Shown here piece after piece: positions 51,001 through 54,000 of a stretch of 64,000 nt of DNA. The DNA is from Escherichia coli (lineage in GTDB: Bacteria > Pseudomonadota > Gammaproteobacteria > Enterobacterales > Enterobacteriaceae). Where the stretch lies: NCBI RefSeq assembly GCF_048403405.1, contig NZ_CP183129.1, one strand, 5' to 3'. Each line of letters begins with the position of its first letter. The first letter of the stretch is position 1. Position numbers: made by a program.

Positions 51001-54000
51001 ATACGGTGGTGGCGGCACCACCGTTGCGGACATCCAGCGTTCCGCCATCATCCACACGGGTATTAGTGGCTGTGTGTCCGCTCAGCACATCCAGACGTCC
51101 GCCATTTTCCAGTACGACATTATCAGCCTTACCCGCCACAACGGAGAATGCTCCCAGGCGGTTTGTGCCGGTGACGGTTGCAGCTGTACTGGTAACCAGT
51201 GCACCGCCCGTGTTCTGGGTGACATCAGACGCTTTACCGCCGGCATTCACCTGCAGCTTTCCTTTCTGGTTGATGGTGGTATGCGCGGCAGTTCCTCCTT
51301 CCTTAATCACCTGCCAGCCATCACGGTTTATCAGCGTCTCTGTTGCCGTGCCACCGTTGTGTACATACTGGTTACCCCCCTCCAGTCGGGTGTTATGTGC
51401 CTCTCCGTGTACCGTCTGGTCACCACCGGCGTAAATGAGGGTGTCCCGTGCCATCCCCGAAGACCAGATAACCTGCCGGCCATTTTTATTGATGGTGGTG
51501 GATTCAGCCGTCCCTCCGACCATCTGACCGCTGGACACATTTTCAGACTCCGGACCACCTTCTGCACCGGTGTTGACGATGGTTCCGGTTGCCAGTCCGC
51601 CATGTTTTATGGTCTGGTAACCATCCTGGTTAATAATTGTACCGGCAGCTTTCCCTCCCCCGTGTACCCACTGCTCACCTCTGTTATCCAGCGTGGTGTT
51701 CACCGCCAGTCCGTTAAGGCTCTGCCCTCCGCCATCACGAATAACCGTATCACTGGCAGTTCCTCCTGCCTGCACAATCTGACGACCATTTGCGGTGACA
51801 GTGGTGTTTCTGCCTGTGCCACCCGCTTTTATCCATTGCCCGCCGGTGTTTTCGTCACTGTCCGGCCCCAGCTCAAGCCCGGTACTGACAGTCACGCCAT
51901 TAGCTGTTCCGGATACAAACTGGTTGTCATGGTTTACCAGTGTTCCGCCATTCACTGTTTCACCCGGGTGCACAACGATGTCAGCAGACAGCACCGGGAG
52001 TGGCGTGACCGCGGCAAGAGACAGTGCAACCGCCACACCGCCACGTTTACCCCGTGCGCGGGCCAGTTCGGAGGCAACCACGAAAGCGCCCGTAATGTGA
52101 TTCCATACCAGCCTGTAGCAGGTATTCAGATGTCGTTTCATCAGCATTTCCTTAATCAGAGTGAGGGTGAATAAAAAAGCCGGTATCCACAGATGTGGAT
52201 ACCGGCAGGTAAAGGGTTACAGTGCCGGAGGTCCGGCTGACGGAAGTTTCTGACGTGTGGCTCTGTTGTTCCCTGAATCTCATGTCTGTGTGTATCTGCG
52301 CACGTTGCTAACAGGAGTTATTATTAGCATAACGATCGATATTAACGATCGGTAAAATAGGTATTGATCGTTTTATTCTATTATCAAGCTATTGCACGGA
52401 CAAGAGAGACAGTAACGAAAACAGCGCTTTTGTGAGCAGACTCAGAGGCAGGGAGGACATCATCCACAACAGGTTCAGAAGAAGATCCAGTTCCATACCG
52501 CGCGGGCAACAGAGACCACTGTGTCACGGACGGCACGCAGAACCGTGCGTGCAACAGAGGCAACACAGACGCTCTCCGCTGTGTCAAATATCCGGTCCAC
52601 CGCACCGGTAAACTGCTCACGGGCCTGAGCGCGGACAGATTCCGTGCGCAGCTCGTCCTGCAGGCGGGTCATCAGGGGACTGGCGGCATGGTCGGGAAGC
52701 GCTGTCATGAGCGCACTGACCAGCGTATCCACTTCCCAGCCGGTGCGGGCCGATACGGCCACAACCGGATGTACAGGCCGGAACAGACGGAATACCGCCT
52801 CCGTTTTTTCGCGAATGTTCTGTGCCTGTGCGGGAGAGGGCTGAATGCCGGCCATATCCCATTCATGGCAGGGCTCCGTTTTGTCGGCCTGTGTCACCAC
52901 AAACAGCACCTGCTGATGTCCGCACTGCAGGATGTGTCGCCAGAAATACTCATCCACAGACAGGGCCCGGTCATCGGCTTTAATCAGCCACAGCACCAGG
53001 TCCAGTTCAGGCAGAATGTCACGGTACAGGGCTTCATACTCTGCATCCCTGTCCCGGCTCTCGCCCACCCCGGGCAGGTCAGTGATAACCATGCTGTAAC
53101 CGTGACCACTCAGACGGAAGCGCTGCACTTCCCGGGTGCCGGCGTGAACATCACTGACCGGTGTGACCTCCCCCTGAAACAGGGCATTACAGAGTGAAGA
53201 TTTACCGGCCCCGCTTTTACCCATAATGCCAATCACGGGCTCGTGACGGGTGAGTTTGCGCAGATGTTCCAGGATGTGACGGGAAAGCGAGTAAGGCAGG
53301 GAGGAGAGCGGTTTTTCAATTGCCTCAATGGCATCAGACGGATTCATACATGTATTCCCGGTGAAAAAAGACAAAACCCCGCACACCGGAAAGGTGGCGG
53401 GGGATCCACGGAGATAATATCTGTCTGAAATTGTTTGGAATCGATGGGGATGTTGAGTATTAACATGAAGGAGGGCAGGAGTTATCCGTTATTGGGTGAT
53501 ATCCTTCCATGAAAATACGCGGTTATTGTTAAACAGCAGGCTGATTACTCCGTAAAGGAGAAAAATATTCATCTTGCAGCCTGATTATCAGGTGTGTTTA
53601 TGTTTACTGAGGTGAGTATTTTTCAGTATATTGTCGGGGCAGTCAGTGGGAGATATTAAATTTACGTTTAGAGTTATCTTGCTTCTGCTGTGTATTTTTA
53701 TAAGAGTGCGCACGTAATGATATCTGTTGATACCATGTTGTTAAGTGTTTCCCTTCCGGGTCATGCGTACTTGCAAAATGGCATCTGAATCGATCACGGT
53801 TTGGCCAAACCGTGATCGAATAGAGAGGAATACGCACGTAATGATTAAATGCTTTTGTTACACCATTCTTCCGGCATGAATATTTATCCAGTTCCCTTTT
53901 TTATTTGTGTAGTGATACTGTCGGAATAGCGTTCAGTAATGTGAAGTGTCCTGTAAAAAAACTTTAATAAATGTGTCATCCTGGTCAGGAAATATCTGCT

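What the first reader, a model, noticed from the sequence alone, without database searches (positions are those of the whole stretch)
52148..52400. flu leader with three GATC sites and a perfect leader hairpin
Three GATC sites spaced 9-15 bp apart lie upstream of flu, the arrangement known to give Dam/OxyR-dependent phase variation of antigen 43. A perfect 13-bp-stem hairpin followed by six T on the coding strand lies about 35 nt before the start codon, positioned like an attenuator.
Basis: partly seen in the sequence, partly recalled or inferred. Interest (0 to 1): 0.38.

Follow-up and report, generated by a model that had tools for sequence, protein, structure and literature searches.

The report
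Known agn43 phase-switch and leader terminator
This is the well-studied control region of the E. coli adhesin gene agn43 (flu): a Dam/OxyR methylation switch followed by a leader terminator (IsrC RNA), so it is real but already known.

Summary
On the minus strand, three GATC sites (52334, 52347, 52366; 9 and 15 bp apart) lie just downstream of a sigma-70-like promoter. A perfect inverted repeat (52179-52206) followed by six T sits 31 nt before the annotated start of a 1040-aa Ag43 autotransporter gene.

The region aligns without gaps across the GATC block to the characterised E. coli K-12 agn43 regulatory region. All three GATC sites are at the same positions. The OxyR consensus scores 14/20 at the homologous place in both sequences.

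The whole leader (52371..52166) is a full-length match to Rfam RF00124 (IS102 = IsrC RNA, 259.7 bits). This is the prematurely terminated agn43 leader, already described as an attenuator/antitermination point (Wallecha et al. 2014, as cited in PMC5389530).

The window is 99.7% identical to E. coli M16807, and the same region occurs in 3437 of 5426 complete E. coli genomes.

One allele-level nuance emerged. The K-12 upstream in-frame start is replaced here by a separate 43-codon upstream ORF. It reads through the terminator and stops inside the agn43 Shine-Dalgarno sequence.

Verdict: already known, low interest.

The parts
52398..52403 (-). -35 hexamer TTGTCC of the agn43 promoter
   Evidence: Only sigma-70-like site found in 52050-52550: TTGTCC, 17-nt spacer, TAGAAT, 9/12 matches. 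Identical in K-12.
52375..52380 (-). -10 hexamer TAGAAT
   Evidence: invariant between the window and K-12.
52335..52371 (-). OxyR-type binding site (consensus match) containing the three GATC sites
   Evidence: 14/20 match to ATAGnTnnnAnCTAT-N7-ATAGnTnnnAnCTAT, the same score at the homologous K-12 position, and >=14 in 1.1% of shuffles. The published K-12 footprint of -16 to +42 (recalled from Wallecha 2002, not read here) would correspond to 52385..52328.
52366..52369 (.). GATC-I, the promoter-proximal site. In K-12 its G is the reported transcription start, giving an inferred +1 at 52369.
   Evidence: aligned to the K-12 GATC. The start-site assignment is recalled from the literature, not tested.
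52347..52350 (.). GATC-II (+20..+23 if +1 = 52369)
52334..52337 (.). GATC-III (+33..+36)
52166..52371 (-). IsrC / IS102 RNA, the agn43 leader up to and including its terminator
   Evidence: Rfam RF00124, full length 1-206/206, 259.7 bits (gathering score 46), E 5e-51.
52224..52237 (-). Small hairpin P1: GCCGG-ACCU-CCGGC
   Evidence: Present in the Rfam consensus structure and the predicted fold. Invariant in 43 alleles, though the retrieval pattern lies in this stretch, which biases that count.
52202..52228 (-). Candidate alternative (antiterminator) hairpin: CCGGCA (52228-52223) pairs with UGCCGG (52207-52202), plus inner GUAA/UUAC. It excludes both P1 and the base of the terminator.
   Evidence: Predicted when the RNA is folded only up to the terminator 5' arm. 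This is inference; there is no covariation because the region is invariant.
52173..52206 (-). Intrinsic terminator: 12-bp stem (arms 52206-52195 and 52190-52179), loop AUCU, then U6 (52178-52173)
   Evidence: K-12 carries the same hairpin with one U-A to U.G change.
52152..52283 (-). Upstream ORF: ATG 52283, 43 codons, reads through the terminator and stops at TAA 52154-52152 inside the agn43 Shine-Dalgarno sequence
   Evidence: An ATG-initiated ORF spanning the terminator is present in every allele examined with an intact hairpin. Its translation is not shown.
52149..52153 (-). Shine-Dalgarno AAGGA, 7 nt before ATG 52141
   Evidence: Read from the sequence.
49019..52141 (-). agn43 (flu) coding sequence, 1040 aa
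   Evidence: NCBIfam auto_Ag43 1838.9 bits; 89% identity to K-12 Ag43. Coordinates match RefSeq WP_000820369.1 in strain M16807. The ORF listing extends it to a second ATG at 52147.
52475..53347 (-). Upstream neighbour: YeeP-like GTPase family gene, same strand
   Evidence: K-12 has the same gene order, with the gene truncated.

Best explanation
This is the regulatory region of an agn43 (flu, antigen 43) allele carried on a CP4-44-like island of an extraintestinal-type E. coli. It works in two layers.

Layer 1, an epigenetic ON/OFF switch. A sigma-70 promoter (TTGTCC-17-TAGAAT) starts transcription at or near the first GATC. The 37 bp immediately downstream form an OxyR binding site that contains three GATC sites. 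If OxyR binds the unmethylated site, it blocks transcription and shields the GATCs from Dam (OFF). If Dam methylates them first, after replication, OxyR cannot bind and the gene is transcribed (ON). Both states are heritable and reversible.

Layer 2, a leader terminator. The 228-nt leader ends in a strong intrinsic terminator, 31 nt before the start codon. Transcripts that stop there are the IsrC/IS102 RNA. Only read-through transcripts encode Ag43, so the hairpin acts as an attenuator.

In this allele a 43-codon upstream ORF runs through the terminator and ends inside the agn43 ribosome-binding site. The most likely route to read-through is therefore a ribosome translating this ORF close behind RNA polymerase and preventing the hairpin from forming.

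What is shown here: sequence homology, motif positions, RNA family membership and predicted terminator strength. What is inferred from K-12 work: OxyR binding, methylation dependence and termination. What is my own inference: the ribosome-mediated read-through.
For: - Gene identity: Ag43 equivalog, 89% identical to K-12 Ag43.
- Regulatory region: 90% identical to K-12 C600 with no indel across the promoter and GATC block; all three GATC sites and both promoter hexamers are conserved.
- OxyR consensus: 14/20 at the same position in both sequences, and rare by chance.
- GATC conservation: all three sites are kept in 37 of 43 distinct leader alleles, 77 of 84 loci.
- RNA family: full-length Rfam IS102/IsrC match at 259.7 bits.
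- Terminator: 12 bp plus U6, -24.1 kcal/mol, z = -8.8. It is conserved, with only pairing-preserving changes between allele types.
- Literature on three GATC sites in the OxyR site and Dam/OxyR competition: PMC2909390, PMC4872104, PMC3764049, PMC13337833.
- Literature on flu control by antitermination at IsrC: PMC5389530 citing Wallecha 2014, and PMC5811629.
- Upstream ORF: one spanning the terminator occurs in all 41 alleles with an intact hairpin, in 9 start/stop configurations.
Against: - No experiment on this allele: methylation state, OxyR binding, switching and termination efficiency are all untested here.
- GATC clustering alone is not beyond chance.
- The upstream-ORF argument is weak statistically. 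A spanning ATG-ORF appears in 38-49% of shuffled leaders, the alleles are closely related, and neither the window ATG (52283) nor the K-12 upstream ATG has an obvious Shine-Dalgarno sequence.
- The key paper (Wallecha 2014) and the footprint paper (Wallecha 2002) are not held in the library. Their details rest on my recollection and on one-line citations in other papers.
Confidence: 0.9

Rival explanations
1. The hairpin simply ends a free-standing small-RNA gene (IsrC) that acts in trans on other mRNAs. Its position before agn43 would then be incidental rather than an attenuator.
For: Rfam files RF00124 as 'Gene; sRNA'. One recent paper treats isrC as an sRNA of unknown function and predicts cyoD as a target by IntaRNA.
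Against: No promoter-like site lies between the terminator and the agn43 start, which are only 31 nt apart, so agn43 mRNA must come from read-through of this terminator. isrC and flu change together in expression data. PMC5389530 explicitly describes antitermination of IsrC as controlling flu. A trans role is not excluded, but it would be additional.
Confidence: 0.1
2. The hairpin is the terminator of the upstream GTPase (yeeP-like) gene, or an insulator against read-through from the island, and is not a regulated element of agn43.
For: It lies on the same strand, downstream of the GTPase gene that ends at 52475. In strain ES2 a deletion joins the GTPase gene directly to the leader and the hairpin is retained.
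Against: It lies 270 nt past the GTPase stop codon, with the agn43 promoter and OxyR site in between. It is inside the agn43 transcript and 31 nt from its start codon. The leader, including the hairpin, is conserved as one unit with agn43 in 1873 genomes.
Confidence: 0.05
3. The three GATC sites are a chance cluster in AT-rich intergenic DNA and have no regulatory role in this allele.
For: Clusters of three GATC within 40 bp are expected about once per window by chance, and three are present.
Against: The positions are identical to the functionally dissected K-12 sites. Each lies in an OxyR half-site position. All three are kept in 37/43 alleles despite about 10% divergence of the surrounding leader.
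Confidence: 0.02

Closest known systems
E. coli K-12 agn43 (flu) regulatory region: Dam/OxyR phase-variation switch plus IsrC leader terminator
   Same: Same gene (89% aa identity), same upstream GTPase neighbour, identical -35 and -10 hexamers, three GATC sites at identical spacing, the same OxyR-consensus score, the same terminator hairpin and U tract, and full-length membership of Rfam RF00124.
   Different: - The leader is about 10% divergent and 6 nt longer (+1, +1 and +4 nt indels).
- The terminator stem has U-A where K-12 has U.G.
- The K-12 upstream ATG that is in frame with agn43 is GTG here.
- Instead of an N-terminal extension, a separate 43-codon ORF (ATG 52283) ends at a TAA inside the Shine-Dalgarno sequence.
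- An extra ATG lies two codons before the canonical start.
- The genomic site differs: an island next to the kps capsule locus rather than CP4-44.
Salmonella gtr (P22) and opvAB OxyR/Dam phase-variation loci
   Same: OxyR half-sites containing GATC, and methylation-dependent, heritable ON/OFF expression (PMC2909390, PMC4856963).
   Different: Those loci have four GATC sites in alternative OxyR sites upstream of the promoter, and OxyR can activate or repress. agn43 has a single repressor site downstream of the promoter. No sequence homology to them was sought here.
pap fimbrial Lrp/Dam switch
   Same: Competition between Dam and a DNA-binding protein at GATC sites after replication.
   Different: It uses Lrp/PapI rather than OxyR, with two GATC sites 102 bp apart in two alternative binding sites.
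Ribosome-mediated transcription attenuators (trp-type leaders)
   Same: A leader ORF, an intrinsic terminator shortly before the structural gene, and a predicted alternative hairpin that competes with the terminator's 5' arm.
   Different: There is no run of regulatory codons. The ORF does not end before the terminator but runs through it. The alternative hairpin has no covariation support. Regulation by translation has been reported only for the K-12 in-frame start (Wallecha 2014, from memory).

Membership tests
agn43 Dam/OxyR phase-variation switch | The controlled gene encodes the Ag43 autotransporter | tested here: met
   NCBIfam NF033177 auto_Ag43 equivalog, 1838.9 bits (cut-off 1200); 925/1040 identical to K-12 Ag43.
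agn43 Dam/OxyR phase-variation switch | Sigma-70 promoter immediately upstream of the GATC block | tested here: met
   TTGTCC-17-TAGAAT at 52403..52375; hexamers identical to K-12.
agn43 Dam/OxyR phase-variation switch | Three GATC sites with K-12 spacing inside the OxyR-binding region | tested here: met
   Sites at 52366, 52347 and 52334 align column for column with K-12. All lie in or touch the 37-bp OxyR consensus match.
agn43 Dam/OxyR phase-variation switch | Recognisable OxyR tetramer site (ATAGnTnnnAnCTAT-N7-repeat) | tested here: met
   14/20 matches, the same as the characterised K-12 site; one of 5 positions in the window scoring >=14; 1.1% of shuffles reach it.
agn43 Dam/OxyR phase-variation switch | OxyR binding abolished by Dam methylation, and heritable ON/OFF switching | not testable with these tools
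   Requires footprinting, methylation-aware sequencing or reporter assays. Known for K-12.
Rfam RF00124 (IS102 / IsrC RNA) | Covariance-model score above the curated gathering threshold over the full model | tested here: met
   259.7 bits against 46; model positions 1-206 of 206; 52371..52166, minus strand.
Intrinsic (rho-independent) terminator | G+C-rich stem-loop directly followed by a U tract on the transcribed strand | tested here: met
   12 bp with 8 G-C pairs, 4-nt loop, U6; -24.1 kcal/mol, z -8.8. No T run follows on the opposite strand.
Intrinsic (rho-independent) terminator | Transcripts actually end at the U tract | not testable with these tools
   Reported for K-12 in vitro (Wallecha 2014; cited, details from memory). 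The existence of IsrC RNA as an Rfam family is consistent with it.
Ribosome-mediated (trp-type) attenuator | Translated leader ORF whose ribosome position selects between terminator and antiterminator hairpins | tested here: inconclusive
   A leader ORF spanning the terminator is present in all 41 alleles with an intact hairpin, but 38-49% of shuffles also have one. A competing hairpin is predicted but invariant, so there is no covariation test. No regulatory codon run is present.

The most novel reading that the evidence does not exclude
The 'unknown' antitermination at the IsrC terminator could be translational.

- Every agn43 leader allele keeps an ATG-initiated upstream ORF that reads through the terminator, even though indels change its frame, peptide and end point. 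It is fused in frame in K-12-type alleles and stops in the Shine-Dalgarno sequence in window-type alleles.
- The invariant 60 nt before the U tract can form three mutually exclusive hairpins: P1, a candidate antiterminator, and the terminator.
- Ag43 output in ON cells would then be set by how tightly translation of the leader ORF is coupled to transcription.
- In this allele, termination and re-initiation at the TAA in the ribosome-binding site would also couple agn43 translation to the leader ORF.
Probability: 0.3. Interest if true: 0.4.

Novelty: already known. Interest (0 to 1): 0.12.

Why it matters
Ag43 drives autoaggregation and biofilm formation, and its Dam/OxyR switch is a textbook case of bacterial epigenetic inheritance. 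Finding it here confirms that this pathogenicity-island copy carries the complete switch plus the leader terminator. Expression of this copy should therefore be phase variable and further gated by read-through.

Nothing here changes current understanding. The only modest addition is comparative. Leader alleles differ in how the upstream ORF ends, but all keep an ORF across the terminator. That gives a testable idea for the antitermination mechanism, which (from my memory of Wallecha 2014, not read here) the K-12 study left open.

Tried and rejected
- GATC clustering as statistical evidence: rejected. About 1 cluster is expected per window and 3 are seen.
- RNA hairpin between GATC-II and GATC-III (52354-52330, in the Rfam consensus) as a conserved RNA structure: not supported. 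One pair is broken in 18 of 43 alleles and another in 7. The palindromy is more plausibly a DNA-level property of the OxyR site.
- Collection scans with a 23-nt leader pattern: viral contigs gave nothing. Species-representative genomes gave one contaminated MAG contig. Metagenomes gave 84 loci, which were used, but conservation around the pattern is biased by that retrieval.
- Reading Wallecha 2014, Wallecha 2002 and Kaminska 2010: none is held in the library.
- A paper search for 'isrC' plus 'flu' with prefix matching returned only clinical-trial noise.
- Shuffle test of the upstream ORF: the per-allele chance is too high (0.38-0.49) to claim selection from one allele.
- Start codon: the ATG at 52147 given by the ORF listing was considered and rejected as the main start. 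AAGGA lies only 1 nt upstream of it but 7 nt upstream of ATG 52141, which RefSeq and K-12 use.
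Full report
**What is in the sequence.** The large ORF next to the finding runs on the minus strand (49019..52147), so the region must be read as its reverse complement. On that strand the order is as follows.
- The end of a GTPase-family gene (stop codon at 52475-52477).
- A sigma-70-like promoter, TTGTCC-17 nt-TAGAAT (52403..52375). It is the only such site in 52050-52550.
- Three GATC sites at 52369-52366, 52350-52347 and 52337-52334, with 15 and 9 bp between them.
- About 130 nt of leader.
- A small hairpin, GCCGG-ACCU-CCGGC (52237-52224).
- A perfect inverted repeat with 13-nt arms (52206-52194 and 52191-52179), followed by TTTTTT (52178-52173).
- AAGGA (52153-52149).
- Two ATG codons, at 52147 and 52141.

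The inverted repeat can form 12 bp with a 4-nt loop. It is called as terminator-like and folds at -24.1 kcal/mol, z = -8.8 against dinucleotide shuffles. On the plus strand no T run follows it, so it is directional.

**Is it more than chance?** The GATC cluster alone is not. With 192 GATC sites in 64 kb, random placement gives about one cluster of three within 40 bp, and three such clusters exist (8344, 30108, 52334). The context is what carries weight. The OxyR tetramer consensus (ATAGnTnnnAnCTAT-N7-ATAGnTnnnAnCTAT; quoted as a dimer motif in PMC2909390) matches 14 of 20 specified positions at 52371..52335. That score is reached at only five positions in the window and in about 1.1% of shuffles of the region. 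The GATC sites occupy the ATAG/CTAT half-site positions.

**Identity of the gene and the locus.** The ORF from ATG 52141 is 1040 aa. It scores 1838.9 bits on the NCBIfam Ag43/Cah equivalog model (cut-off 1200) and is 89% identical to K-12 Ag43. The window is collinear with E. coli M16807 (NZ_CP031256.1, 1269355-1333354) with 198 mismatches in 64 kb. RefSeq annotates agn43 there at the position equal to 49019..52141, preceded by a 'GTPase family protein'. The surroundings are the glc operon, gsp remnants, a group-2-type capsule (kps) cluster and a CP4-44-like island (cbtA/yeeU-type toxin-antitoxin, JAB-domain, antirestriction and DUF932 genes). Two IS66-family elements are inserted just downstream of agn43. 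The 421-bp regulatory query matches 3437 of 5426 complete E. coli genomes, 1873 of them over at least 80% of its length, nearly always annotated 'GTPase family protein | agn43'.

**Comparison with the characterised K-12 region.** The K-12 (C600) region is 90% identical. In the pairwise alignment both promoter hexamers are identical. There is no indel from the promoter through the GATC block, and all three GATC sites coincide. The K-12 site gives the same 14/20 OxyR score at the homologous position.

Papers in the library state the following for agn43. Its regulatory region holds three GATC sites that overlap a single OxyR repressor site. Methylation abrogates OxyR binding. A dam mutant is locked OFF and an oxyR mutant is locked ON (PMC2909390; PMC4872104; PMC3764049; PMC13337833).

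From my own recollection of Wallecha et al. 2002 (not held), transcription starts at the G of the upstream GATC and OxyR protects -16 to +42. Mapped here, +1 = 52369, the GATC sites are at +1, +20 and +33, and the footprint is 52385..52328. That contains the consensus match. The leader is then 228 nt.

**The hairpin is the IsrC terminator.** A scan against Rfam gives one hit in 51500-53500: RF00124 'IS102 RNA', full length (1-206 of 206), at 52371..52166 on the minus strand, 259.7 bits against a gathering score of 46 (repeated on the whole window). The model ends with the 13-pair hairpin and the U tract. IS102 is the RNA called IsrC in K-12.
[quoted passage not shown]'.
- PMC5811629 lists 'IsrC sRNA (flu gene attenuation)'.
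- As I recall the abstract of the 2014 paper (not held), it showed a functional rho-independent terminator 28 bp upstream of the main start codon. It also reported an unknown antitermination mechanism that fades as cultures age, and two in-frame start codons, one on each side of the terminator, with translation from the upstream one raising expression.

**Variation among alleles.** A 23-nt leader pattern retrieved 84 metagenome loci, which give 43 distinct 413-nt alleles.
- All three GATC sites are present in 37 of 43 alleles (77 of 84 loci). The six exceptions each lost one site by point mutation, in two cases to the OxyR-consensus ATAG.
- The terminator occurs in two forms. The window type has a U-A pair where the K-12 type has U.G (24 and 19 alleles). 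All other stem pairs are invariant except in two singletons.
- A middle-leader helix of the Rfam model shows one true double change (52307/52299: U-A in 24 alleles, C-G in 16).
- Conservation around the retrieval pattern is biased. However, in an unbiased set of five E. coli genome alleles the stretch from the P1 hairpin to the U tract varies at only four positions: one base in the P1 loop, two in the terminator loop, and the U-A/U.G stem pair. The flanks diverge by 10-20%.

**The upstream ORF.** In K-12 an ATG 156 nt upstream is in frame with agn43 and open through the terminator. This matches the 'upstream in-frame start' of the 2014 paper as I recall it.

In the window that ATG is GTG, and three indels (+1, +1 and +4 nt) change the frames. 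Instead, ATG 52283 opens a 43-codon ORF that reads through the terminator in the same frame as in K-12. Because of the 4-nt insertion it stops at TAA 52154-52152, inside the Shine-Dalgarno sequence and 10 nt before ATG 52141. A 16-codon ORF (ATG 52330) ends at a TGA that overlaps ATG 52283 as ATGA.

Across alleles, every one of the 41 with an intact hairpin has an ATG-initiated ORF spanning the terminator, in nine start/stop configurations. This suggests that translation across the terminator, rather than a particular peptide, is retained. The evidence is weak, though: 38-49% of leaders shuffled upstream of the terminator also have such an ORF, the alleles are related, and no Shine-Dalgarno sequence precedes these ATGs.

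**Possible alternative RNA structure.** Folding the nascent leader only up to the terminator's 5' arm predicts a competing hairpin. CCGGCA (52228-52223) pairs with UGCCGG (52207-52202), with an inner GUAA/UUAC helix. This hairpin excludes both P1 and the base of the terminator. It is a plausible antiterminator, but it has no covariation support.

**Mechanism.**
- Shown here: homology, motif positions, family membership and predicted terminator strength.
- Inferred from K-12 experiments: OxyR/Dam competition at the three GATC sites sets heritable OFF and ON states. In ON cells a fraction of transcripts end at the terminator as IsrC, and the rest read through to give agn43 mRNA.
- My inference: read-through is promoted by ribosomes translating the leader ORF close behind RNA polymerase. 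In this allele, termination at the TAA in the ribosome-binding site may couple re-initiation at ATG 52141.

**Rivals.**
- A purely trans-acting sRNA gene is unlikely as the sole role. There is no promoter in the 31 nt between the terminator and the start codon.
- A terminator for the upstream GTPase gene is unlikely. The agn43 promoter lies between that gene and the hairpin.
- A chance GATC cluster is excluded by positional identity with K-12 and by conservation across alleles.

**Verdict.** The feature is a typical non-K-12 allele of a thoroughly characterised system (Dam/OxyR phase variation plus the IsrC leader terminator). It is already known and of low interest. The allele-specific upstream-ORF arrangement is a minor variant that offers a testable idea about antitermination.

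Noticed in passing
window 48959-52333 (agn43 ORF 49019-52141): The whole 3.1-kb agn43 coding sequence contains no GATC, against 8.3-9.4 expected from its own di- and trinucleotide content. K-12 agn43 also has none, and 51 distinct full-length alleles from metagenomes have 0 (35 alleles) or 1 (16 alleles). The only GATC sites near the gene are the three regulatory ones. Whether this relates to Dam or SeqA behaviour at the switch, or to the origin of the island, is unknown.
   Followed up: partly
window 35440-40259: This is the largest GATC-free stretch of the window: 4.8 kb with 0 sites against 17-20 expected. It covers the CP4-44-like island genes (cbtA/yeeU-type toxin-antitoxin, DUF987, JAB-domain, antirestriction, DUF932). 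The adjacent 40259-43683 is GATC-rich instead. GATC avoidance may therefore be a property of parts of this island family rather than of agn43 alone.
   Followed up: partly
window 8344-8370: A second cluster of three GATC sites (GCCGATCAGTTAAGGATCAGTTGACCGATCC) lies between glcA and a frameshifted IS4 transposase gene (8403-9748), apparently in the IS4 end. A third cluster, at 30108-30143, lies inside a KpsF/GutQ-type gene.
   Followed up: no
L033 (U27), L003 (U13), L029, L016, L040, L074: Six natural leader alleles have lost one of the three GATC sites by point mutation. In two of them GATC became the OxyR-consensus ATAG (CCAATAGTT, CGATAGAT). That would make the half-site methylation-independent and should bias the switch toward OFF. 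They are single metagenome contigs, so sequencing error is not excluded.
   Followed up: partly
L090 (E. coli ES2, NZ_CM184352.1) 1240-1650: In this genome a deletion joins the P-loop region of the upstream GTPase gene directly to the leader at the P1 hairpin. The agn43 promoter and all three GATC sites are removed. RefSeq annotates one long 'Ag43' CDS that starts about 330 nt upstream of the normal ATG and runs through the terminator.
   Followed up: partly
window 52145-52147: This allele has an extra in-frame ATG two codons before the canonical start (AAG in K-12). It sits only 1 nt after the AAGGA, so it is probably not used, but mechanical ORF calling starts there.
   Followed up: yes
window 52294-52312: The middle-leader hairpin of the Rfam IS102 model shows a compensatory double change between allele types (pair 52307/52299: U-A in 24 alleles, C-G in 16, C-A in 3). 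This is the only covariation seen in the leader.
   Followed up: partly
window 43551-48840: Two IS66-family elements (one with a frameshifted tnpC) are inserted directly downstream of agn43. In K-12, yeeR and yeeS follow at that position. The rest of the CP4-like gene set lies beyond them, at 35.5-43.4 kb.
   Followed up: no
window 6285-6506 (-), 9756-9879 (+), 13164-13202 (+): Three other Rfam matches pass their gathering scores: C0719 RNA (297.6 bits) between glcB and glcA, STnc490 Hfq-binding RNA (120.5 bits) just after the IS4 element, and a JUMPstart element (53.6 bits) ahead of the capsule-region genes.
   Followed up: no
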